Below are positions 22,868 to 30,002 of a stretch of 32,000 nt of DNA, in pieces. Made by a program: the position numbers and the translations under genes. Origin of the DNA: Gemmata obscuriglobus (GTDB lineage Bacteria; Planctomycetota; Planctomycetia; Gemmatales; Gemmataceae); assembly GCF_008065095.1 (NCBI RefSeq), contig NZ_CP042911.1, forward strand, positions 7,950,001 to 7,982,000. The letters are read 5' to 3'. A model generated the notes under the pieces. The model was given only the letters and a program-made list of their open reading frames with translations, was not told where the DNA came from and ran no database searches. Position 1 is the first letter of the stretch. Each line of letters begins with the position of its first letter.

Positions 22868-22879
22868 CGCGGCACGCCT

Positions 22880-22973
22880 TCCGAAGTTGAACTTACAGTT
22901 CACCGCCGCACCCCCCGCGACCGGTGCCGGGAAAAACCCAGGGGTCGCGGTCCGATGTAGCGGCGGGTTCGGC
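22880..22973 (-). repeat. attC-like imperfect palindrome, diverged copy G
   Basis: Plus strand: TCCGAAG...CAGTTCACC...CCGCGACC/GGTCGCGG inner stem...GTTCGGC (22967-22973). It lies between the GYF-TPR stop (22990) and the small ORF start (22867). Confidence 0.6.
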
Positions 22974-22989
22974 TGTTTGGCGGCCCCCC

Positions 22990-23901
22990 CTACCCCCCCA
23001 GCAGTTCAAGGACCCTCGCACGACCCGCCTGGGTATTCGCCAGGTACGACCGCGCCGTCGATTCCAGCGAGCGCCGGCGGGACCGCGCGCGCGGGAAGAG
23101 CCAGCCCCAGAGGGCGGACAAGCCCACGCGCGCGCGTTCCGCAAGTTGGCCCTCAATCAGTGGGACGGCCTGCTCGTACTGGTCGAGCGCTTCCGGGTAA
23201 CGGCCCTGATCGCACAGGACGGCGCCCAGGTTGCAAAGCGCCCCGCCCAGGAGGACCGCCGTCCACGGGTCGTTCGGGCGCGCCTGCAACAACTGACTGC
23301 GGATCGCCACCGCCTTCCCGATCGACGCCTTCGCCTCGTCCAGCGCGCCGAGGTCGCGGTGGAGCAGGCCCCGCTGGTTGAAGCTGGCGGCCAGTGCCTG
23401 CTGGTACTCGTGGTCCCGGGGCGCGGAGCGGGCGAGCCGCTCGCGGATCGCGCCCGCCTCGTCGAGCGCCCACCCCGCGCTGCCGAGGCGGCCCGCGGAC
23501 TGGTGGAGCGCGCCGAGGGCGAAGTAGCACTCGGCCAGAGCCGCCGCGTTCGCGGGCACGTCCGGGCGGCGGAGGGCGGCTTGGGCGGCAAGCGCCGCGA
23601 GCGCCCAACACGTCGCCTCCTGGTGGGCCGCGCACGCGTCGTGCCAGTGCCCCGTGCTCAGCCCGCCGCCCATCGACCGCCCGCGGGCGGCCACGGCCAC
23701 CAGCCGCTGGCCTTCGTCTTCCGGCTCCCCTCCGAGGAGGTTCGCAACAAGGAACTGGGCCTCCCGACCTCGCGCCGCCACCTTACGCCACGCCAGATCG
23801 GTGGGCCGGAGAACCCCAGCGGCCACCAACTGATCGATCTGGGATACCGTGGCCGGGCCGCGCTCGACGCCATTGAGGGTGTAATACCAGTCGATTGGCA
23901 T
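22990..23901 (-). CDS. GYF_2 (DUF4339)-domain protein with TPR-like repeats
   Basis: The N-terminal IDWYYTLNGVERGPATVSQIDQLVAAGVLRPTDLAW is the GYF_2 pattern. TPR-like helices follow (NLGAVLCDQGRYPEALDQYEQAV; LLHRDLGALDEAKASIGKAVAI). Confidence 0.8.
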   Translation of the reverse strand: MPIDWYYTLNGVERGPATVSQIDQLVAAGVLRPTDLAWRKVAARGREAQFLVANLLGGEPEDEGQRLVAVAARGRSMGGGLSTGHWHDACAAHQEATCWALAALAAQAALRRPDVPANAAALAECYFALGALHQSAGRLGSAGWALDEAGAIRERLARSAPRDHEYQQALAASFNQRGLLHRDLGALDEAKASIGKAVAIRSQLLQARPNDPWTAVLLGGALCNLGAVLCDQGRYPEALDQYEQAVPLIEGQLAERARVGLSALWGWLFPRARSRRRSLESTARSYLANTQAGRARVLELLGG

Positions 23902-23911
23902 CGCTCCATCC

Positions 23912-23995
23912 GCCGCTAAAAGAACAGTTCACCTGCACCGCCACGTCCCGAGCCGCGGTGCAGGTGAACTGCTCCGCGGCGCTGTCGGGTTCGGA
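23912..23995 (-). repeat. attC-like element, short variant A
   Basis: A perfect 17 bp palindrome is formed by CAGTTCACCTGCACCGC (23925-23941) and GCGGTGCAGGTGAACTG (23955-23971). GTTCGGA follows at 23989-23995. It lies between the stop at 24003 and the start at 23901. Confidence 0.65.
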
Positions 23996-24002
23996 TCGGC
24001 GC

Positions 24003-24383
24003 TCACCCCGCATCCACCCTGTATCCCAGCGCCGAGGCCGCGCGCTCGACCAGTGGCCAGGCGGGGCCGTCCACCTCGTCCGGGCTACCGAAGAACAGCT
24101 CCGAGTCCGGCATGACGCAACAGGCGGCCACGTTGCCGAGGTCGTCGCCGAACGAGACACACACGGCCGCATGCTGAACCGACTGGAGTCTCGCCAGTCG
24201 CTCCCACTTGCCGGGCAGCGCGTCTGAGAACCGCAGGGTGGCAGCGATCATGCCTGCCACATGGTCTTGGCCTGCGTCCGGATCGGCGTGAACCTCGGCG
24301 AACTCGTCCGCCAACCGGCGGATCACGTCCGCGACCGACAGGGGGGCGCCACCTTCGGGTGGGAGGAGTTTCACGAACGCCAC
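24003..24383 (-). CDS. Hypothetical protein (126 aa)
   Basis: The GTG 24383 start is preceded on the coding strand by GTTCGGCACCCGGAGGGAGGGTGACTG. Composition is coding-like and no domain was recognised. Confidence 0.6.
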   Translation of the reverse strand: MAFVKLLPPEGGAPLSVADVIRRLADEFAEVHADPDAGQDHVAGMIAATLRFSDALPGKWERLARLQSVQHAAVCVSFGDDLGNVAACCVMPDSELFFGSPDEVDGPAWPLVERAASALGYRVDAG

Positions 24384-24483
24384 CAGTCACCCTCCCTCCG
24401 GGTGCCGAACGAATCCATGCAAGCAATGTGTGCCACGGTGAGGGCTGCTCGCCCTTGGGATCTCGGAGGCTTGCGACGGCATC

Positions 24484-24722
24484 GGACACCATTCTGGCGA
24501 TCGACCTGGGTCGGTACAAGAGCGTGGCGTGCGGTTACCAGCGGAGCACTCAGGAGCACACGTTCCGCACCTTGGACACGCCCCCGCGACAATGGACCAA
24601 CTGTTGGCCCGATACCCGGGCGCGGTGCTGGTGATCGAGGCGTGCTCGAACGCCGGGTGGGGTCGCGGCGGGCGGTCGCGGCTGGGCACACCGTTAAGGT
24701 GACCAACACCGCGAACGGCGTG
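24484..24722 (+). pseudogene. IS110-family transposase fragment (N-terminal ~75 codons, frameshifted, no start codon)
   Basis: DTILAIDLGRYKSVACGYQRSTQEHTFRTLDT (frame a), then MDQLLARYPGAVLVIEACSNAGW (frame b), then HTVKVTNTANG (frame c). This matches the conserved IS110 DEDD N-terminus (ILAIDLGK.KSV.C.......F.T......L..LL....P..VVIEAC..AGW......G..V.VANT) as I remember it. It is truncated near 24722. Confidence 0.65.
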
Positions 24723-24769
24723 AATTGTCCCGTGATACCAATTATTCTGTGCGTACCGATTGGCGGCAC

Positions 24770-25612
24770 TTATCGTTCGTCCAGGACCTCGCCACCGTTT
24801 GGCGTTATGGCGCCCCAATAAATCGTTTCGGCGATCGAAGGCGAGACGGTTCCGACGGACCCGTCCGCGCGGGCAACAATCATCCCGCCCCGGTGCGGGG
24901 TCTGCGCGAGGGACGGATCGCACCTCTCGGCGAACGGCATCGGCAGAACCTGAAACGTCACGGCTCCCCGGCTGCCGCGACTGACGGGCGGGGCCGCCGA
25001 TGTCACGGGGTAAACGTCGTTCAAGTTGCGGCCGCCGGCGACCGGGCCGCCGTCGGCGAACGTCGCTCGCCGCGCGACGACGGCCACATCGGTGTACGTG
25101 TACTCGGTGGCCGTGTCCGCGCACCGGGCGAACCGCTCCGCCAGCAGTACGGTGTTCGAGGTGCCGTCCGTGAACGTCGCGGCCAACGAGGGCGAGCCCT
25201 CGAGCGCGAACGCGTTGACGGCGTAGCTGGTCAGGGTGGCGAAGGAGACGTCGGGGGTCAGCGTCGGGTCCGCCGGGCTGCGGTAGACGGGACAGACGTA
25301 GTTGAACGCCCGGTTCTCGCGCCGGAGCCGGTACAGCGCGTCCTGCTCGACGTAGGGGAGAACGAAATCGAACGGAGAGTCGATCGGGTGGTTAATGCTC
25401 CCCTTCCTCGCATCAATCGAGGGGAGGCGCCCGTCGTGCGTGTTCGCCACGTTGTGAAGGGCCAGGGCGATTTGTCGCATGTTGTTCGAGCTGCGCATGC
25501 GCACCGCGGTCTCGCGGACCTTCTGGACCGCGGGGAGGAGGAGGCCGATCAGCACCGCGAGGATCGCGATGACGACCAAAAGCTCGATCAGAGTGAACCC
25601 GGTGCGGCGCAT
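24770..25612 (-). CDS. DUF1559 protein with prepilin-type N-terminal methylation motif (H-x9-DG pseudopilin-like)
   Basis: GGAGGGGAG lies upstream of ATG 25612. The N-terminus is [34 protein letters not shown], followed by [12 protein letters not shown]. The C-terminal [12 protein letters not shown] is H-x9-DG. This family is characteristic of Planctomycetota. The ORF-track upstream extension to 26026 is Arg-rich and overlaps other features. Confidence 0.9.
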
Positions 25613-25806
25613 GTCGCTCCCCTCCGTGGAACTTGTGGCGCGTTGGTCCGAACCCGCCGTTGTCGAGCACCCGCTTCCGGGCGAAGAACCGGACCGCGGT
25701 AACGTTGCCCACTGGCGACGTAGACGCCGCGTTGCGTTTGACCTGTGGGAAGCAGCCGACGCCGCAGCTACACTACGGCGTCCGGGACCGGCCCGTCGTA
25801 CCCGCG

Positions 25807-25905
25807 GCCGAAGCACACCGGGTGCTCCGGCGGCAGGTGCTCGTCGCACCGATACCGCCCGGCCACGACGGCCCCGCGACTGATCCGCGTCGGGGTCAGT
25901 TCGGT
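25807..25905 (-). repeat. Degenerate attC-like element (copy I)
   Basis: On the coding strand it reads ACCGAAC (25905-25899)...GAGCACCTGCCGCCGG...CTTCGGC (25813-25807). A further GTTCGGA core (25653-25647) lies 35 nt before the DUF1559 start. Confidence 0.3.
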
Positions 25906-26183
25906 GGCGTTCTCCAGGTCGTATACCACCGATTGCACACCGCACACCGACCGACGGCCGGCTTGCCCTCCAGCGGAACGAGGGACATCGACTCCCACTC
26001 CACCCGCACGTCCGGCCGCTCCTCACTCAGCACCGCCGCCAATGCCGCGAGCACAGCCTTGCGGATTTGCTCATCCGCTTGCAACGGTAATAAGGTGCGG
26101 CGGGCAACCTCGGGGTCCTGATCGACGAGGAAGGAGATCGTTAGAAGCGTCGTCTCAGTTGCCAACTGATGCCCCCCGCGCAT
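25896..26183 (-). CDS. Hypothetical protein (95 aa)
   Basis: ATG 26183 is preceded on the coding strand by GTTCGGCAGCGGAAGGCGCGA. The sequence reads [52 protein letters not shown]... The stop follows immediately after CCGAAC. Confidence 0.55.
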
Positions 26184-26197
26184 TCGCGCCTTCCGCT

Positions 26198-26273
26198 GCC
26201 GAACGAACAGCCCACCAGCACCGCCACCGGATGAACGATGCGTCCCGAATCAGCCGGCGGTGTCAGGTTCGGC
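26198..26273 (-). repeat. attC-like imperfect palindrome, copy B (centre type II)
   Basis: GCCGAAC (26198-26204) - CCACCAGCACCGCC - ...GGATGAACGATGCGTCCCGAATCAGCC - GGCGGTGTCAGGT - GTTCGGC (26267-26273). The upstream ORF stops inside it at 26250. Confidence 0.85.
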
Positions 26274-26702
26274 GCGTTGCCACCTCGCGTCGGTGGGGTA
26301 CTGGCCCTTCTCCCACTCGCCACACTCTCCGCACACCCAACCGTGATCCACCCACCCGTTCGGGGTGTAACGGAACACGACTACCTCTTGGGCGTCCGGC
26401 CCGAGTACCCGCCGCCCGCCGGAGAACAGCAGGACGGCGGCTGACGCTGAGGCCGCCTGGCCGTGGTTGACGCTGATGCACACCACGCCGCACGCCTCCA
26501 GCCGCAGCGCCGGGCTGACTGGGCCGCGAACGTCCACGCACCCGCCGGAGTTGGCGTAGCCGGGGTGATCCTCAATGAACCACGAGGTCGGCGCGAACCG
26601 GATGCCGGTGTGGGCGGACAGCGACTCCACCAGTCCGCCGAGCATCCGCCGCCACTCGGCCTCGGGGCGGTAGCCAGGATTCTTGTTGAACACCGACTCC
26701 AC
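26250..26702 (-). CDS. Hypothetical protein (150 aa)
   Basis: The GTG 26702 start is preceded by GTTCGGCAAGAGAGGCGCTGGG. The sequence reads (M)ESVFNKNPGYRPEAEWRRMLGGLVESLSAHTGIRFAPTSWFIEDHPGYANSGG...GWVCGECGEWEKGQYP. The TTG start at 26771 in the ORF track lies inside repeat C and was not used. Confidence 0.6.
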   Translation of the reverse strand: MESVFNKNPGYRPEAEWRRMLGGLVESLSAHTGIRFAPTSWFIEDHPGYANSGGCVDVRGPVSPALRLEACGVVCISVNHGQAASASAAVLLFSGGRRVLGPDAQEVVVFRYTPNGWVDHGWVCGECGEWEKGQYPTDARWQRAEPDTAG

Positions 26703-26717
26703 CCCAGCGCCTCTCTT

Positions 26718-26807
26718 GCCGAACAAACAGCCCACCGGCACCGCCACGTCCCGAGCCGCGATGCGTCGCAATACTGCGGCGGTGTTAGGTGCCGCGACTG
26801 ATTCGGC
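26718..26807 (-). repeat. attC-like imperfect palindrome, copy C (centre type I)
   Basis: GCCGAAC (26718-26724) - AAACAGC - CCACCGGCACCGCC - ACGTCCCGAGCCGCGATGCGTCGCAATACTGC - GGCGGTGTTAGGTG - ...ATTCGGC (26801-26807). It fills the gap between the stop at 26811 and the start at 26702. Confidence 0.85.
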
Positions 26808-26810
26808 GTC

Positions 26811-27068
26811 CTACGCTGCCGAGGCGACGGCGAACCGAACTCCGGCCAGCAAGCCAACAGTTCCGAACACCAGAACCTCGTTGACGGCCAAGTACGCCCA
26901 CCGCCACTGCTTGAACGCCGGATAGTCCACGAACGCCCGAGTGCCGATCCGACCCTGCGGAACCAGGAGCGGGATCGCCAGCCCCCACCAACTTAGGCAC
27001 GCCGCCGGGGCGAGCATCAGGAGCATCGCGGCGACATGGAGGTCGATCTCACTCCACAACCGCTGCAC
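26811..27068 (-). CDS. Small membrane protein (85 aa, two hydrophobic segments)
   Basis: The GTG 27068 start is preceded by GTTCGGCGAGGGAGGGCTCCGGG. The hydrophobic segments are HVAAMLLMLAPAACLSWWGLAIPLLV and WAYLAVNEVLVFGTVGLLAGV. Confidence 0.6.
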   Translation of the reverse strand: MQRLWSEIDLHVAAMLLMLAPAACLSWWGLAIPLLVPQGRIGTRAFVDYPAFKQWRWAYLAVNEVLVFGTVGLLAGVRFAVASAA

Positions 27069-27084
27069 CCCGGAGCCCTCCCTC

Positions 27085-27175
27085 GCCGAACAAACAGTTC
27101 ACCTGCACCGCCACGCCCCGAGCCGCGGTGCGTCGCAATACCGCGGCGGTGTCAGGTGCCGCGCCGGAGGCGGCG
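27085..27175 (-). repeat. attC-like imperfect palindrome, copy D (centre type I)
   Basis: GCCGAAC (27085-27091) - AAACAGTT - CACCTGCACCGCC - ACGCCCCGAG - CCGCGGT GCGTCGCAAT ACCGCGG - CGGTGTCAGGTG (ending at 27158). The distal heptamer is degenerate (GGAGGCGGC). Confidence 0.85.
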
Positions 27176-27193
27176 TGCCTTTGGTGCCAGCCG

Positions 27194-27694
27194 CTACCGG
27201 ACCCGCTTGAAGTACTCGCGGATGCCGCCGATCTGGGTCGTCACCCAGTACGCGTCCGGGCCGTCGAACTGGATGATCGTGAACTCGCTCAGTTCCATCA
27301 CGCCGTCCAGCGGCGACGGCTTGTCCTTGATCTCGCGGATGACGACCGAGTGCTTGTCCTTGCCCAGCACGGCGTACCGGTCCGTCTCCGCTTGGCCGTT
27401 GAGGTCGGTCGTGAGGGCCGTCGCGGTGTACGTCACGCGCAGCTTGCCGAACAGGGTGCGGAGGGCGGCCTCCTGCTTGTCGTCCACCGGCTTCCGCTCC
27501 CGGATGCCGGCGACGGTCCGGTCGGCGTCGGACTGCCAGGTGCCGAGCAGCCGGTCGTCGGTCATGCGGGTGAGTCGAACGGGGGCCGCAACCGCCACCA
27601 CCAGAGCGGCGAGCAGACCGGCCGCCGCGACCATCGACGCGACGGCAACCCATTTCCACCGCCGCGACGACTGCTCGCCTTTACCCACCCGCAT
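27194..27694 (-). CDS. Hypothetical membrane-anchored protein (166 aa)
   Basis: ATG 27694 is preceded by GTTCGGCAAGGGAGGAGCG. An N-terminal anchor or signal is present (RRWKWVAVASMVAAAGLLAALVVAVAAP), followed by a soluble domain. The ORF-track extension to 28150 reads through repeats E and F and the tRNA-like gene. Confidence 0.65.
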   Translation of the reverse strand: MRVGKGEQSSRRWKWVAVASMVAAAGLLAALVVAVAAPVRLTRMTDDRLLGTWQSDADRTVAGIRERKPVDDKQEAALRTLFGKLRVTYTATALTTDLNGQAETDRYAVLGKDKHSVVIREIKDKPSPLDGVMELSEFTIIQFDGPDAYWVTTQIGGIREYFKRVR

Positions 27695-27706
27695 CGCTCC
27701 TCCCTT

Positions 27707-27794
27707 GCCGAACAATGAACTCACCTGCACCGCCATCACCGGATGAGCGGTGCGTCCCGAATCAGCCGGCGGTGTCAGGTGCAGCGTCTGGGGC
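27707..27794 (-). repeat. attC-like imperfect palindrome, copy E (centre type II)
   Basis: GCCGAAC (27707-27713) - AATGAACT - CACCTGCACCGCC - ATCACCGGATGAGCGGTGCGTCCCGAATCAGCC - GGCGGTGTCAGGTG - CAGC GTCTGGGGC (the distal heptamer is degenerate). Confidence 0.85.
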
Positions 27795-27809
27795 GGCCTC
27801 GGCCGCGCA

Positions 27810-27835
27810 GGGAATGCGCGATGCACGGCATTCCC
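27810..27835 (-). terminator. Stem-loop GGGAATGC / GCATTCCC immediately 3' of the tRNA-like gene
   Basis: An 8 bp stem (27810-27817 / 27828-27835) with a 10 nt loop lies 11 nt downstream of the tRNA-like 3' end. There is no U-run. Confidence 0.3.
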
Positions 27836-27845
27836 GGGACACGAA

Positions 27846-27957
27846 TGCGGCGGGCGGGATTCGAACCCGCGAAGGTCGTCACCCGAAGGTGAACCCCACC
27901 CCGGCCCGACGCGGTTACGCGACGGGACAGGTGCCGTCTCCACTGGGCTACCGCCGC
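27846..27957 (-). ncRNA. tRNA-shaped RNA gene (112 nt) with canonical acceptor, D and T arms but no anticodon loop
   Basis: The minus-strand sequence is GCGGCGG-TA-GCCCAGTGGAGACGGC-A-[61 nt]-GCGGGTTCGAATCCCGC-CCGCCGC-A. It has a 7 bp acceptor stem, U8, an A14/G18G19-type D loop and a perfect GTTCGAATC T loop. The anticodon position is occupied by a ~14 bp rod (CCTGTCCCGTCGCG-TAAC-CGCGTCGGGCCGG, two mismatches) capped by a tetraloop. A 10 bp variable arm capped by TTCG follows. I found no 5 bp stem with a 7 nt U33-containing loop anywhere in the central 61 nt. Confidence 0.5.
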
Positions 27958-27979
27958 ACGCGCGCCTGCGCCCTCGGGT

Positions 27980-28070
27980 GCCGAACGAACAGCCCACCTG
28001 CACCACCATCACCCGATGAGCGATGCCGTCCAAACTACATGGCGGTGTCAGGTGCAGCGCCGGGTTCGGC
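27980..28070 (-). repeat. attC-like imperfect palindrome, copy F
   Basis: GCCGAAC (27980-27986) - GAACAGCC - CACCTGCACCACC - ATCACCCGATGAGCGATGCCGTCCAAACTACAT - GGCGGTGTCAGGTG - CAGCGCCGG - GTTCGGC (28064-28070). It lies between the DUF4259 stop (28080) and the tRNA-like gene. Confidence 0.85.
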
Positions 28071-28079
28071 CTGAACACC

Positions 28080-28427
28080 TTACCCGGCCCTCTGCTGCAT
28101 CGCCTCCAGCGGCGCCGCGATGGAGGCCCGCCGCGGTGCCACGTCCTCATCCCGGTAGTAGCTGTCCAGCCCCTCGTCCGAGTCGCATACCCCGAGGAAC
28201 CGTGCCGACCACCGGGCCACGATTGCCGCGTCCACGTGCGCCCGGCACCGCTCGACCAGGAAAGCCAGTACCACCAGCCGAGCCGCCACCTCGTCGTCCA
28301 CGTCGTGGACGTTCAACTCCGGATCGGCCGCGAACCGGTCGAGCTCGGCGACGAGTTGCCGGGCAAGGCCGCAGGCGTACTCGCAGGCGTCGTCGCTTTG
28401 GAAGGTGTCGGTGCCCCACCGCCCCAT
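28080..28427 (-). CDS. DUF4259-like protein (115 aa)
   Basis: ATG 28427 is preceded by GTTCGGCGAGGGAGGGCGATGGGAC. The N-terminal MGRWGTDTFQSDDACEYACGL matches the DUF4259 opening (MG.WG.G.F.ND.A.D) as I remember it. Confidence 0.7.
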   Translation of the reverse strand: MGRWGTDTFQSDDACEYACGLARQLVAELDRFAADPELNVHDVDDEVAARLVVLAFLVERCRAHVDAAIVARWSARFLGVCDSDEGLDSYYRDEDVAPRRASIAAPLEAMQQRAG

Positions 28428-28481
28428 GTCCCATCGCCCTCCCTCGCCGAACCAGTGTTTGGTGTGCGAAGGAACGCCCAG

Positions 28482-28532
28482 CAGCCCCAAGCCTGGTATC
28501 AAGCCTAAAGACTTATACCGGGCTTGGGGCTG
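28482..28532. other. Long hairpin CAGCCCCAAGCCtGGTAT ... ATACCgGGCTTGGGGCTG between the oxidoreductase gene and the first array gene
   Basis: About 17 bp pair, with one mismatch, around a 15 nt A/T-rich loop. A second short stem AGCAAG-TGC-CTTGCT lies at 28540-28554. Neither is followed by a U-run. Confidence 0.45.
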
Positions 28533-28568
28533 GCCTGCAAGCAAGTGCCTTGCTGTCGCGCCCTCTGG

Positions 28569-30002
28569 TTACGCTTTCTTCACGTGCAACTGCTGCACTT
28601 CCTTCCACACGTCGCCGTAAGCCTCCTTGTCGAACGGCGGGCACCCGGTCTCGTACTGGCCCAGCGGGTGCTGCTTCGTGCGCATCAGGGCCGTACAGTA
28701 GCTGAACGTCCGGCACACCCGTTTGCGGTCCAGCTTACCGGTGTCGAGGAGCTGGCGCACCCAGTCGGGCTGCGAGAGCGTTGCGCGCCCCACCCCCACA
28801 ATGTTGATGCGCCCGTCGCGCACGTTCGCCGCCCCCGCCTGCGGCAGGAACTCTTGCAGGTAACTGTACCCCGTCCCCACAAGGGCCAGATCCGGGTACG
28901 CCGCTTGAACCGTGGCGGCGGCGCGGAAGTGGCGGTCCACGCCGATCAGCGGGTGCTCGGGCGACTCGTACCCGTCCGGCGGCGGGTACTCGAAGGGGCG
29001 CCCGTAGTGCGGCTGCGCGTAGGGGTTGCCCATCGTCGCGTTGACGAGCGTCACACCCAGGGCGCGCATCTCACCGATCCACCGGAGCGGTTCCGTGAGG
29101 TCCACCGCGAACGGCTCCGTCTCCGACATGCCCCACCCGTTGACGAGCGGCAGCGCGTGCGCGTCCGGCGCGCCGGCATCGTCTTCCCCCTTGTGGAAGG
29201 GGATGCCGTCGAACAGGTTCATTCGCGTGGCGACGACGACGTGGGCCGGCACCGCGGCGCGAACCGCCTGAATCACCTCGCGGGCGAACCGGGTGCGGTT
29301 CTCGTAGCTGCCGCCGTACGGCCCCGGGCGGTTGCGCGCCCCGAGGAGTTCGTTGAGCAAGTACCGGTGGCACTGCTTCACGTCGACGAAGTCGAACCCG
29401 ACCTCTACCGCGAGCTTCGCGGTCGCAACGTAATCGTCCACGAGCCGCTTGAGTTCGTCGTCGGTGATGAGCGGGTAGTCCGCCGTCACCTTCTCACCGG
29501 TCGCCTTGTTCGCGACGGTGCGCGGGTCGAGAACGGGGTCGTGGGTGGCGATGATCGGGTGCGGGTGGCTGTACCGGCCCGAGTGCGTCAGTTGCAGCCC
29601 GAACAGCAGGTCCGAATCGGTCCCGTTGGCGCCGCGGTGCGCCGCGCGGCACTCCTCGACGATCCGCGCGAAGTGGGGCTTCGTGTTCGGGTTCAGCACG
29701 ATCTGGCGCGGGTTGGCCCGCGCCCCCGGCGTGACCGCGCACGCTTCGCCCCAGATCAGTTTTGCGCCGCCCGCCCCGAACCGGGCGTAGCGCCGGAAGG
29801 TGAGCGGGCCGGGGGCGCCGTCGGGTTCCCCGTCGCACCCCTCCATCGGGTGAACGCACCACCGGTTGCCGGCCGTGCGCGGGCCGACGGCGATCGGACG
29901 GAACAGGGGGGCCAGGTCGTCGGAGAAGCGCAGGTCGGTGCCGAGGCGGGCGTTTTCCGCTTCCAGGTCCGCGACCGACTTATACTTGAAGAACTTCGCC
30001 AT
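28569..30002 (-). CDS. NADH:flavin oxidoreductase, Old Yellow Enzyme family (TIM barrel)
   Basis: 477 aa. VHPMEG, LQLTHSGRY, GFDFVDVKQCHRYLLNELLGARNRPGPYGGSYENRTRFAREVIQAVR and VGVGRATLSQPDW are OYE/NADH-oxidase-type blocks. Confidence 0.85.
   Translation of the reverse strand: MAKFFKYKSVADLEAENARLGTDLRFSDDLAPLFRPIAVGPRTAGNRWCVHPMEGCDGEPDGAPGPLTFRRYARFGAGGAKLIWGEACAVTPGARANPRQIVLNPNTKPHFARIVEECRAAHRGANGTDSDLLFGLQLTHSGRYSHPHPIIATHDPVLDPRTVANKATGEKVTADYPLITDDELKRLVDDYVATAKLAVEVGFDFVDVKQCHRYLLNELLGARNRPGPYGGSYENRTRFAREVIQAVRAAVPAHVVVATRMNLFDGIPFHKGEDDAGAPDAHALPLVNGWGMSETEPFAVDLTEPLRWIGEMRALGVTLVNATMGNPYAQPHYGRPFEYPPPDGYESPEHPLIGVDRHFRAAATVQAAYPDLALVGTGYSYLQEFLPQAGAANVRDGRINIVGVGRATLSQPDWVRQLLDTGKLDRKRVCRTFSYCTALMRTKQHPLGQYETGCPPFDKEAYGDVWKEVQQLHVKKA

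What the first reader, a model, noticed from the sequence alone, without database searches (positions are those of the whole stretch)
27846..27957. tRNA-shaped RNA without an anticodon, occupying its own cassette-like unit
The unit between repeats F and E (27980 to 27707) has no ORF with a leader like its neighbours. It holds a 112 nt gene instead.

The gene has a perfect 7 bp acceptor stem (GCGGCGG/CCGCCGC), a discriminator A, a normal D arm and a canonical GGGTTCGAATCCC T arm. The anticodon stem-loop is replaced by a ~14 bp rod capped by UAAC. The variable arm is a 10 bp helix capped by UUCG. I checked every 5-7-5 window in the central 61 nt and found no plausible anticodon loop. An 8 bp hairpin follows the 3' end.

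Its D-arm junction (GGCACCTGTCCCGTCGCG) also resembles the 5' arm of the flanking repeats on the same strand (GGCACCTGACACCGCCGCG). This raises the possibility that the two are evolutionarily related.

Possible roles: a tRNA mimic (decoy for a tRNA-targeting toxin or nuclease, a primer, or a substrate for CCA-adding or aminoacylation enzymes), a decayed class II tRNA, or a recombination target.
Basis: seen in the sequence. Interest (0 to 1): 0.65.

Follow-up and report, generated by a model that had tools for sequence, protein, structure and literature searches.

The report
Anticodon-less tRNA-like gene in a cassette
A 112-base gene in Gemmata obscuriglobus has a complete tRNA body but a closed hairpin where the anticodon should be, and it is the only cargo of a small mobile-type gene cassette; it is real and unannotated, but I found only this one copy, so its function is inferred, not shown.

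Summary
Window 27957..27846 (minus strand) scores 37.9 bits against the Rfam tRNA model (cut-off 29). It has a perfect 7-bp acceptor stem, discriminator A, U8/A14/G18G19/A21 and a canonical T arm. A 12-bp rod capped by UAAC replaces the anticodon arm, followed by a long variable arm capped by UUCG. ARAGORN finds no tRNA. Its intron mode calls tRNA-Val(CAC), but it also calls a tRNA in 300 of 300 controls with a shuffled centre, so that call is uninformative.

The gene is the sole content of a 273-bp unit bounded by attC-like sites (GCCGAAC ... GTTCGGC). The host is Gemmata obscuriglobus, where I counted 150 such sites in six fetched stretches of four array regions. Cargo includes SUKH, Barstar and Imm1 immunity proteins. 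No integrase lies beside any array.

I found no second copy: none in about 190 cassettes, JGI metagenomes, IMG/VR, phages, plasmids or a 5.8-billion-protein database. My scan of reference genomes failed, so absence there is untested.

The proposed kinship with the flanking repeats is not above chance (61 of 500 shuffles).

Best reading: a tRNA-derived RNA that cannot decode, probably matured by tRNA-processing enzymes and acting as a tRNA mimic. A non-functional relic is nearly as likely.

The parts
27967..28081 (-). Upstream attC-like site F. R'' core GCCGAAC at 28070-28064; imperfect palindrome CACCTG(A)CACCGCC ... GGTGGTGCAGGTG; R' core GTTCGGC at 27986-27980.
   Evidence: Repeat family; alignment; nhmmer 96.8 bits; sequence reading.
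27713..27985 (-). The 273-nt cassette-like unit, from just after the G of one GTTCGGC core to the G of the next. The tRNA-like gene is its only cargo.
   Evidence: Start-to-start repeat spacing of 273; core positions read; shortest unique region (161 nt) of the 160 cassettes measured; flat GC by codon position.
27958..27985 (-). 28-nt leader TTCGGCACCCGAGGGCGCAGGCGCGCGT. It has no room for its own promoter. Its purine-rich stretch is degenerate compared with the GGAGG leaders of neighbouring cassettes. A 3-codon mini-ORF (GTG CGG CGG TAG) starts in its last three bases and runs 9 nt into the gene.
   Evidence: Sequence; alignment of leaders; no sigma-70-like promoter in 26000-28700.
27846..27957 (-). 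tRNA-like gene, 112 nt. Acceptor 5' strand 27957-27951; D arm 27948-27933; rod 27931-27900 (UAAC loop 27917-27914); variable arm 27897-27872 (UUCG loop); T arm 27870-27854; acceptor 3' strand 27853-27847; discriminator A at 27846. No CCA is encoded.
   Evidence: Rfam tRNA 37.9 bits, E 2e-6, full-length alignment with a 46-nt insert; folds; own tRNA-body scanner; own covariance model, self-score 140.5 bits.
27810..27835 (-). Trailer hairpin GGGAAUGC-(10 nt)-GCAUUCCC. It is not followed by a U run, so it is not an intrinsic terminator by the scan.
   Evidence: Sequence; terminator scan found none here.
27793..27806 (-). Second small hairpin GCGGCC-GA-GGCCGC, overlapping the start of the nhmmer hit for attC site E (27805..27697).
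   Evidence: Sequence.
27697..27805 (-). The cassette's own attC-like site E. It has the palindrome CACCTG(A)CACCGCC ... GGCGGTGCAGGTG and the R' core GTTCGGC at 27713-27707. The SD GGAGG and the start of the next cassette ORF (27694..27194) follow.
   Evidence: nhmmer 96.4 bits; alignment; sequence.
22875..28452 (-). The whole cassette array of the window: seven attC-like sites, all cargo on the minus strand. The first junction at 28452 is a bare GTTCGGC-GAGGGAGGG core with no hairpin, directly after the flavin oxidoreductase gene (28569..30002).
   Evidence: Cassette proteins have no significant Pfam match, apart from a GYF/TPR protein and a DUF1559 protein; the first cassette has a sub-threshold DUF4259 hit.

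Best explanation
This is a genuine tRNA-derived gene in Gemmata obscuriglobus. Its anticodon stem-loop has been replaced by a closed 12-bp rod with a UAAC tetraloop. Everything that makes a tRNA body is kept: the 7-bp acceptor stem, discriminator A73, U8, A14, G15 with C48, G18G19, A21, the T arm and a long class II-type variable arm. It therefore cannot read a codon.

It is the sole cargo of a promoterless 273-bp unit bounded by attC-like recombination sites, oriented like the protein-coding cassettes around it.

Most likely mechanism (inferred, not shown):
1. The unit is transcribed as part of a read-through array transcript.
2. The tRNA body makes RNase P cut at G27957 and a 3' tRNA-processing nuclease (RNase Z or exonucleases) trim after A27846.
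3. CCA is added.
4. The result is a stable tRNA mimic of about 115 nt that engages proteins which recognise the tRNA elbow and acceptor, but never enters decoding.

The Gemmata cassette pool carries many toxin-immunity genes, and tRNAs are frequent targets of polymorphic toxins. The role I favour is therefore a non-cleavable decoy or competitor for a tRNA-targeting enzyme.
For: Shown:
- tRNA homology: Rfam RF00005 at 37.9 bits against a gathering score of 29, full-length, with the anticodon arm replaced by a 46-nt insert.
- All tertiary-contact nucleotides are present (direct reading).
- No anticodon arm.
- The rod is well paired, with probabilities of 0.7-1.0.
- Non-coding composition.
- Cassette boundaries and attC-like architecture: complementary GCCGAAC/GTTCGGC cores, an imperfect palindrome with one conserved extra base, and a variable centre.
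- No own promoter or terminator detected.
- Same orientation as the cassette ORFs.
- The same site family forms arrays holding 150 sites in the G. obscuriglobus stretches I fetched, and arrays in G. algarum and metagenome contigs.
- Cargo of those arrays includes at least 12 SMI1_KNR4/SUKH proteins, Barstar, Imm1 and two ribosomal protein S21 genes.

From the literature:
- SUKH, Barstar and Imm1 are immunity proteins of polymorphic toxin systems. tRNases are a major toxin class (PMC3482391). G. obscuriglobus has an expansion of 21 SUKH paralogs (PMC3113570).
- Planctomycetes have chromosomal integrons, and attC clusters without an integrase are common (PMC4889954 and PMC9176274).
Against: - No second copy was found anywhere I could search, so there is no covariation and no evidence of selection. 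The searches covered about 190 cassettes and 235 kb of Gemmata-type arrays, JGI metagenomes, IMG/VR, phages and plasmids, and 5.8 billion predicted proteins queried with three-frame translations.
- Expression, processing and CCA addition are untested.
- The variable arm and T arm have only about 0.2 ensemble probability in a secondary-structure model.
- The rod's core is an imperfect palindrome. It could have arisen in one step by insertion, so intact pairing does not prove selection.
- No tRNA-targeting toxin was identified in the genome.
- No integrase was found next to any array, so mobility of the unit is inferred from architecture alone.
Confidence: 0.4

Rival explanations
1. Non-functional relic. 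A tRNA gene (or its transcript) was captured into a cassette and disabled when a small palindromic sequence was inserted into, or replaced, the anticodon loop. It persists because cassettes far from a promoter are under little selection.
For: It is a singleton: I found no homologue. The inner 22 nt of the rod form a near-perfect palindrome, CCCGTCGCG-TAAC-CGCGTCGGG, which pairs by construction. It is the shortest cassette of the 160 measured. At least one other cassette, L138 13065-13260, has no sizeable ORF.
Against: All 7 acceptor pairs, all 5 T-stem pairs, the T loop and every D-loop tertiary nucleotide are intact. The variable region is also structured rather than decayed. Random decay should not spare exactly the tRNA body. 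I could not find a close source tRNA: comparison with 301 tRNAs from unrelated genomes gave no clear isotype.
Confidence: 0.33
2. A natural 'tRNA scaffold' or punctuation element. The tRNA body only recruits RNase P and a 3' tRNA-processing nuclease (RNase Z or exonucleases). This would either release and stabilise the rod hairpin as the active small RNA, or cut the polycistronic array transcript between the first and third cassettes and so change the expression of the downstream cassette.
For: The architecture (a foreign hairpin grafted in place of the anticodon arm of an otherwise intact tRNA) matches engineered tRNA scaffolds (my own knowledge, not checked here). The cassette is promoterless and has no terminator, so defined RNA ends would have to come from processing. 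The gene sits between two coding cassettes on the same strand.
Against: I found no target or partner for the rod. The rod and the variable-arm sequences are unique in the window. There is no second example in about 190 cassettes.
Confidence: 0.12
3. An aminoacylatable carrier that does not decode. The RNA would be charged by a synthetase that ignores the anticodon; with A73 and a class II shape, LeuRS is the obvious candidate. It would then donate the amino acid to a non-ribosomal acceptor.
For: Intact acceptor stem, A73, long variable arm and an elbow able to form. That LeuRS, SerRS and AlaRS do not need the anticodon is established knowledge. For SerRS, the variable arm and G73 are given as identity elements in PMC7609411.
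Against: No aminoacyl-transferase gene (Fem, L/F-transferase, cyclodipeptide synthase and the like) is in this cassette, and the adjacent cassettes have no significant Pfam hits. G3-C70 excludes AlaRS identity and A73 argues against SerRS. LeuRS recognition of this D-loop arrangement is untested.
Confidence: 0.06
4. A true decoding tRNA-Val(CAC) carrying a 33-nt intron that is removed.
For: ARAGORN in intron mode gives exactly this call.
Against: The same mode calls an intron-containing tRNA in 300 of 300 controls with a shuffled centre. The parse has C at position 37, a U31-U39 mismatch and an intron at 32/33. No group I intron or any other Rfam family matches. To my knowledge, no bacterial mechanism splices a 33-nt tRNA intron.
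Confidence: 0.03
5. A DNA-level element: a tRNA-shaped recombination target (a mimic of an integration site) or a structured part of the recombination site itself, related to the flanking repeats.
For: tRNA genes are common integration sites for tyrosine integrases (general knowledge). The gene shares the 8-mer GGCACCTG with the repeats' 5' arm.
Against: The similarity to the repeats is at chance level (61 of 500 shuffles) and the repeat HMM does not hit the gene. Complete attC-like sites flank the gene on both sides, so nothing is missing from the recombination sites. No integrated element abuts it.
Confidence: 0.05

Closest known systems
Canonical bacterial tRNA (Rfam RF00005), especially class II tRNAs (Leu, Ser, Tyr)
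   Same: Acceptor stem, discriminator, U8, A14, G18G19, A21, the T arm GGGUUCGAAUCCC, a 3-bp D stem and a long variable arm. It scores above the family's gathering threshold.
   Different: There is no 5-bp anticodon stem with a 7-nt loop. Instead there is a closed 12-bp rod with a tetraloop. It is 112 nt long. Standard finders do not detect it.
tRNA-like domain of tmRNA
   Same: A tRNA mimic with acceptor and T arms that lacks an anticodon and is processed by tRNA enzymes (PMC3985003 abstract).
   Different: No G3-U70 alanine identity pair (it has G3-C70), no mRNA-like tag reading frame, a full D arm, and about a third of the size. ARAGORN's default search finds no tmRNA; a relaxed tmRNA search gave only an implausible permuted call running past the ends of the 400-nt test stretch.
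Bacterial Y RNAs of the YrlA type (tRNA-mimicking module bound by Ro60/Rsr)
   Same: A non-decoding bacterial RNA that mimics the tRNA elbow, with T-arm and D-arm mimics (PMC4201824 abstract).
   Different: To my knowledge (not checked here), in YrlA the RNA ends lie in the long stem that stands in for the anticodon stem, and the acceptor-like stem is closed. Here the ends are at the acceptor stem and the rod is closed. The Rfam Y RNA model scores 16.6 against a gathering score of 80. No Ro60 gene is among the gene products I scanned.
[quoted passage not shown]
   Same: Complementary core sites at the two ends of an imperfect palindrome with an extra unpaired base. Variable centres. Arrays of short, same-strand, promoterless units with mostly unknown cargo. 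No neighbouring integrase, as defined for CALIN (PMC4889954).
   Different: The cargo is a tRNA-like RNA gene, not an ORF; three full-text literature searches found no report of a tRNA or tRNA-like gene as cassette cargo. The core is GTTCGGC rather than the usual GTTRRRY. Integrase-dependent recombination of these sites is untested.
Allo-tRNA-like and other irregular tRNA genes linked to mobile elements or toxin-antitoxin loci
   Same: Non-standard tRNA-shaped genes with long variable arms. [quoted passage not shown]
   Different: Allo-tRNAs have unusual 8/4 or 9/3 acceptor/T-stem geometry (my own knowledge) and, as far as I know, still have an anticodon loop. This RNA has the standard 7/5 geometry and no anticodon loop.

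Membership tests
tRNA (Rfam RF00005) | Covariance-model score at or above the gathering threshold | tested here: met
   37.9 bits against 29, E 2e-6, model positions 1-71. The default filtered run did not report it.
tRNA (Rfam RF00005) | 7-bp acceptor stem, discriminator base, T arm with a UUCRANY loop, and a D loop with A14 and G18G19 | tested here: met
   Direct reading. The D stem has only 3 bp plus a C-C mismatch.
tRNA (Rfam RF00005) | 5-bp anticodon stem with a 7-nt loop (U33, anticodon, purine 37) | tested here: not met
   ARAGORN finds none. Rfam places a 46-nt insert there. The intron-mode call is no better than the controls with a shuffled centre (300 of 300).
tRNA (Rfam RF00005) | Aminoacylation and decoding on the ribosome | not testable with these tools
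   Needs charging assays or tRNA sequencing.
Class II tRNA (Leu/Ser/Tyr type) | Base-paired variable arm of more than 10 nt between the anticodon and T arms | tested here: inconclusive
   A 26-nt arm (10 bp, UUCG loop) is possible, and the cloverleaf lies within 2 kcal/mol of the MFE. The arm has only about 0.2 ensemble probability.
tmRNA | G3-U70 pair, tag-peptide reading frame, SmpB-type tRNA-like domain | tested here: not met
   It has G3-C70. ARAGORN's default search finds no tmRNA in the window. A relaxed tmRNA search gave only an implausible permuted call running past the ends of the 400-nt test stretch.
Y RNA / YrlA | Model match, and RNA ends in a Ro-binding stem with a closed acceptor-like stem | tested here: not met
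   Deinococcus_Y_RNA scores 16.6 bits against a gathering score of 80. The topology is the opposite.
Intron-containing bacterial tRNA | A group I intron in the anticodon loop, or a spliceable intron leaving a canonical anticodon arm | tested here: not met
   No intron family matches in Rfam. The extra sequence is only about 33-39 nt. The ARAGORN parse is non-canonical and non-specific.
Integron gene cassette (attC-bounded) | Inverse core sites R'' and R' flanking an imperfect palindrome with extra unpaired base(s) and a variable centre | tested here: met
   GCCGAAC ... CACCTG(A)CACCGCC ... GGCGGTGCAGGTG ... GTTCGGC, seen across the window and in other loci. The core departs from GTTRRRY at one position.
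Integron gene cassette (attC-bounded) | Arrays of same-orientation, promoterless units with unrelated cargo | tested here: met
   7 sites in the window and 18-39 per 20 kb in other G. obscuriglobus loci. The window's cassette proteins have no relatives in the six metagenome loci L131-L136, which include three arrays.
Integron gene cassette (attC-bounded) | An integron integrase (IntI) and an attI site at the head of the array | tested here: not met
   There is no recombinase next to the window array. The proteins I scanned beside the heads of three other arrays have no integrase domain. This fits the CALIN category. Whether IntI exists elsewhere in the genome was not tested.
Integron gene cassette (attC-bounded) | Recognition by the IntegronFinder attC covariance model, and recombination by IntI | not testable with these tools
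   The model is not available here, and recombination needs an experiment.

The most novel reading that the evidence does not exclude
The cassette encodes an RNA immunity factor: a mobile, anticodon-less tRNA decoy. tRNA-targeting toxins (anticodon nucleases, acceptor-stem tRNases or RNA-modifying toxins delivered by competitors) would bind it but could not inactivate it, so it protects the cell's real tRNAs. It would be the first RNA-only cargo of an integron-type cassette and the first tRNA-mimic immunity determinant in a polyimmunity locus.
Probability: 0.12. Interest if true: 0.8.

Novelty: new variant of a known kind. Interest (0 to 1): 0.45.

Why it matters
If the RNA is made and matured, it would show two things.

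First, integron-type cassette pools can carry RNA genes that use the cell's tRNA-processing machinery to obtain defined ends without a promoter or terminator of their own.

Second, tRNA mimicry may be part of the repertoire of mobile immunity functions.

There is also a practical lesson. The gene is invisible to ARAGORN and to Rfam run with default filters, and it is not annotated in the genome record. Similar anticodon-less tRNA-like genes could be systematically missed.

The limit is that this is one copy in one strain, so at present it is a lead rather than a family.

Tried and rejected
1. Genome-collection scan with GGCACCTGN{40,70}GGGTTCGAATCCC. Absence from other reference genomes, and from the rest of the G. 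obscuriglobus chromosome, is therefore NOT established.
2. The same pattern in IMG/VR gave 7 unrelated phage tRNAs.
3. Translated-seed searches with the sense-frame pseudo-protein found nothing in IMG/VR or in JGI metagenomes.
4. A three-frame pseudo-protein query against 5.8 billion proteins found nothing even at E 10.
5. blastn against plasmids and phages found nothing.
6. ARAGORN intron mode was rejected as evidence after the shuffled-centre control.
7. Kinship with the attC arm was rejected: the alignment score is at chance level.
8. ARAGORN calls in L135 (tRNA-Val, tRNA-Ser) lie in ordinary G+C-rich sequence that appears to be coding and have no Rfam support. I rejected them.
9. Isotype assignment by comparing the body with 301 tRNAs from the fetched loci was inconclusive: Gly, Leu and Arg tie at low similarity. 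Gemmata's own tRNAs could not be fetched.
10. A search for the downstream cassette protein in other contigs found only the same strain.
11. My own covariance model R1 over 235 kb of arrays found only itself. The next hit (L141, 19.7 bits, E 0.21) is an attC site between inverted GCGGCGG/CCGCCGC flanks.
12. No integrase was found beside the arrays.
Full report
**What is there**

On the minus strand, window 27957..27846 reads GCGGCGGUAGCCCAGUGGAGACGGCACCUGUCCCGUCGCGUAACCGCGUCGGGCCGGGGUGGGGUUCACCUUCGGGUGACGACCUUCGCGGGUUCGAAUCCCGCCCGCCGCA. ARAGORN on the whole window finds no tRNA. Rfam at gathering thresholds with its default filters finds nothing. A permissive Rfam search of 27600-28200 does align the tRNA model end to end (positions 1-71) at 37.9 bits, above the curated cut-off of 29, with E 2e-6. 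It places a 46-nt insert where the 13 central anticodon-arm positions belong. So the tRNA homology is real, and the gene is hidden from routine pipelines by filter behaviour, not by weak signal.

Reading the alignment gives these features:
- a 7/7 acceptor stem and discriminator A;
- U8, A14, G15 with C48 available for the Levitt pair, G18G19 and A21;
- a 3-bp D stem plus one C-C mismatch;
- a 5-bp T stem with the loop UUCGAAU;
- no encoded CCA.

**The centre of the molecule**

The 61 central nucleotides fold into two elements.
- A rod of three 4-bp blocks separated by U-U and U-C mismatches and closed by UAAC. Its pair probabilities are 0.7-1.0.
- A 10-bp arm with two G-U pairs and a 2-nt bulge, closed by UUCG.

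The central MFE is -31.4 kcal/mol against -24.7 +/- 3.0 for dinucleotide shuffles (8 of 300 fold as well). The full cloverleaf costs -59.7 against an MFE of -61.6. In the MFE structure the variable arm pairs with the T arm instead, so those two arms have only about 0.2 probability without tertiary contacts. Real tRNAs often behave this way in such predictions, so I treat the cloverleaf as plausible but not proven.

**Is there a hidden anticodon?**

As a control I kept the 5' and 3' tRNA parts and shuffled only the central 61 nt. The intron mode called a tRNA in 300 of 300 such sequences, so the call carries no information. The parse itself has C37, a U-U closing pair and a non-canonical intron site. 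No intron family matches in Rfam.

**Not coding**

GC content by codon position is flat across the unit (0.69-0.72 in all open frames). Neighbouring cassette ORFs show GC2 near 0.47 and GC3 of 0.83-0.93. The longest sense ORF in the unit is 35 aa.

**The unit**

The flanking repeats belong to a family of seven in the window. On the minus strand each has:
- a core GCCGAAC (or a close variant);
- an imperfect palindrome CACCTG(A)CACCGCC ... GGCGGTGCAGGTG, with one conserved extra base on the 5' arm;
- a variable centre;
- the inverse core GTTCGGC, followed by a purine-rich SD and a start codon.

The first cassette (ORF starting at 28434) is preceded by a bare GTTCGGCGAGGGAGGG with no hairpin, right after the flavin oxidoreductase gene. 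This is the architecture of integron attC sites and cassettes. Taking the crossover after the G of GTTCGGC, by analogy with integrons, the tRNA-like gene lies in a 273-nt unit (27985..27713). The unit consists of a 28-nt leader, the 112-nt gene, a trailer with two small hairpins, and its own attC-like site. No sigma-70-type promoter or intrinsic terminator was found in 26000-28700. No integrase is adjacent, so this is a cluster of attC sites lacking an integrase in the sense of Cury et al. (PMC4889954). Chromosomal integrons and taxon-specific attC sites are known in Planctomycetes.

**Source and wider context**

The window is from Gemmata obscuriglobus (CP025958.1; also draft ABGO01000235.1 of the same strain). 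The region is unannotated at the tRNA-like gene.

The attC pattern occurs in six JGI metagenome contigs. Two of them carry arrays of at least 7 and at least 12 sites.

A profile of open-frame translations of the attC sites retrieved 16 tiny 'hypothetical proteins' that are really attC sites. They come from G. obscuriglobus, G. algarum and G. palustris. Fetching their loci gave these site counts:

| Locus | Organism and position | attC-like sites |
|---|---|---|
| L138 | G. obscuriglobus, 2.78-2.86 Mb | 18 |
| L139 | G. obscuriglobus, 2.78-2.86 Mb | 39 |
| L140 | G. obscuriglobus, 2.78-2.86 Mb | 38 |
| L141 | G. obscuriglobus, 3.61 Mb | 21 |
| L145 | G. obscuriglobus, 0.42 Mb | 27 |
| L142 | G. 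algarum | 18 |
| L144 | another metagenome-assembled genome | 6 |

Together with the 7 sites of the window, that is 150 sites in G. obscuriglobus. The cargo is mostly unknown. It includes at least 12 SMI1_KNR4/SUKH proteins, a Barstar, an Imm1 and two ribosomal protein S21 genes. SUKH, Barstar and Imm1 are immunity proteins of polymorphic toxin systems, in which tRNases are a major toxin class (PMC3482391). Zhang et al. noted 21 SUKH paralogs in G. obscuriglobus (PMC3113570). The proteins beside the array heads have no recombinase domain.

**Is there a second copy?**

I did not find one.
- My tRNA-body scanner (T arm plus acceptor complement, any centre) recovers the gene and nothing credible in all the arrays.
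- A covariance model of the gene (R1) scores 140.5 bits on itself and at most 21 bits elsewhere in 235 kb.
- Rfam finds no family in the arrays.
- Translated-seed searches of IMG/VR and JGI metagenomes found nothing.
- A three-frame pseudo-protein search of 5.8 billion proteins and blastn against phages and plasmids found nothing.
- The exact sequence is present only in assemblies of the same strain.

Among the 160 cassettes I could measure, this one has the shortest unique region, 161 nt against a median of 431.

My single scan of the reference-genome collection was wasted on a pattern that saturated with ordinary tRNAs. The rest of the G. obscuriglobus chromosome and other species' genomes therefore remain unsearched.

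**The proposed link to the repeats**

The gene and the repeats share GGCACCTG and some following bases. The best local alignment score is 23, and 61 of 500 shuffles of the gene reach it. The repeat HMM does not hit the gene. I reject the kinship as unsupported.

**Interpretation**

Shown: this is a tRNA-derived, non-coding, anticodon-less gene that is the sole cargo of an attC-type cassette, in a genome with very large arrays of such cassettes.

Inferred: because the unit has no promoter or terminator and lies in cassette orientation, any RNA must come from read-through transcription. The intact tRNA body is what RNase P, 3' tRNA-processing nucleases such as RNase Z and the CCA-adding enzyme recognise, so a stable mimic of about 115 nt is the expected product. 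It cannot decode.

Given the immunity-type cassette pool, I favour a decoy or competitor for a tRNA-binding enzyme, probably a toxin. The evidence for that is contextual only.

A relic is almost as likely: a tRNA copy disabled by a palindromic insertion and kept in a weakly selected cassette. The main argument against a relic is that every stem and tertiary nucleotide of the tRNA body is intact. The main argument for it is that this is a singleton.

Lesser rivals are a processing or scaffold element, an aminoacyl carrier (LeuRS is the candidate, given A73 and the class II shape), an intron-bearing tRNA-Val, and a DNA-level site.

**Comparison with known systems**

It works most like the non-decoding tRNA mimics (the tRNA-like domain of tmRNA, and the tRNA module of bacterial YrlA Y RNAs), but it is a member of neither.
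- It lacks G3-U70 and a tag reading frame.
- Its ends are at the acceptor stem.
- The Y RNA model scores far below threshold.

It passes the tRNA model's score threshold but fails the defining anticodon arm, so I do not file it as a tRNA. The unit meets the structural features of an integron cassette, but no integrase was found.

**Verdict**

This is a real and unusual feature. It is best described as a new variant of known kinds: a tRNA mimic, and a non-coding cassette. The function is untested and there is no family yet. Interest is moderate (0.45).

Noticed in passing
window 22875-28452 (minus strand): Array of seven attC-like sites with short same-strand cassettes. It sits between a flavin oxidoreductase gene and a chemotaxis (cheA/cheW) cluster, with no integrase beside it. 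The first junction is a bare GTTCGGC-GAGGGAGGG core with no hairpin.
   Followed up: partly
L138, L139, L140 (G. obscuriglobus CP025958, 2.78-2.86 Mb); L141 (3.61 Mb); L145 (0.42 Mb): Very large arrays of the same attC-like family: 95 sites in 60 kb in the first region, 21 in L141 and 27 in L145. Cargo includes at least 12 SUKH/SMI1_KNR4 proteins, Barstar and Imm1. In other words, the 'polyimmunity'-type genes of this species are organised as attC cassettes.
   Followed up: partly
L139 484-738 and 12956-13210: Two cassettes encode ribosomal protein S21 (Pfam PF01165). These are extra copies of a translation-apparatus component carried as cassette cargo.
   Followed up: no
L141 1-5268 and L145 1-3683 (opposite strand to the arrays): Both arrays begin next to paralogous genes on the opposite strand: a protein of about 1830 aa (with a Portal_Mu hit on record for the L141 copy) and a 172-aa coiled-coil protein. 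This may be a phage-derived toxin-delivery module. No recombinase domain was found.
   Followed up: partly
P0001-P0016: Many attC-like sites in Gemmata genome records are annotated as tiny hypothetical proteins of 43-76 aa, because one frame through the site is open. A profile of these translations is an efficient way to find the arrays.
   Followed up: yes
window 27846-27957: The Rfam tRNA match (37.9 bits, above the gathering score) appears only in the permissive search of a short stretch. The default filtered search of the 32-kb window drops it. tRNA-like genes with large inserts can be lost this way.
   Followed up: yes
window 27949-27960 (minus strand): A three-codon mini-ORF (GTG CGG CGG TAG) overlaps the 5' end of the tRNA-like gene, 11 nt after a GAGGG stretch. 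It is probably coincidental.
   Followed up: no
L138 13065-13260: Another cassette with no sizeable ORF (longest 16 aa). It contains a long G+C-rich hairpin (CCACGGGGGTGGGCGCG ... CGCGCCCACCCCCGAGG) and is not tRNA-like.
   Followed up: partly
L135 1375-3114 and 4046-4153: In a metagenome-assembled contig, a near-identical attC-like site lies about 1 kb from a gene whose product looks like a Cas4-Cas1 fusion.
   Followed up: no
L009 about 2730-2830 (IMG/VR contig): A phage tRNA-shaped gene with a 7-bp anticodon-type stem (GCACCTG/CAGGTGC) enclosing a 29-nt A+T-rich loop. It is an unrelated example of an expanded anticodon region.
   Followed up: no
window 24770-26026 (minus strand): One cassette-sized unit carries a DUF1559 protein with a prepilin-type N-terminal methylation motif. 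That family is hugely expanded in Planctomycetes.
   Followed up: no
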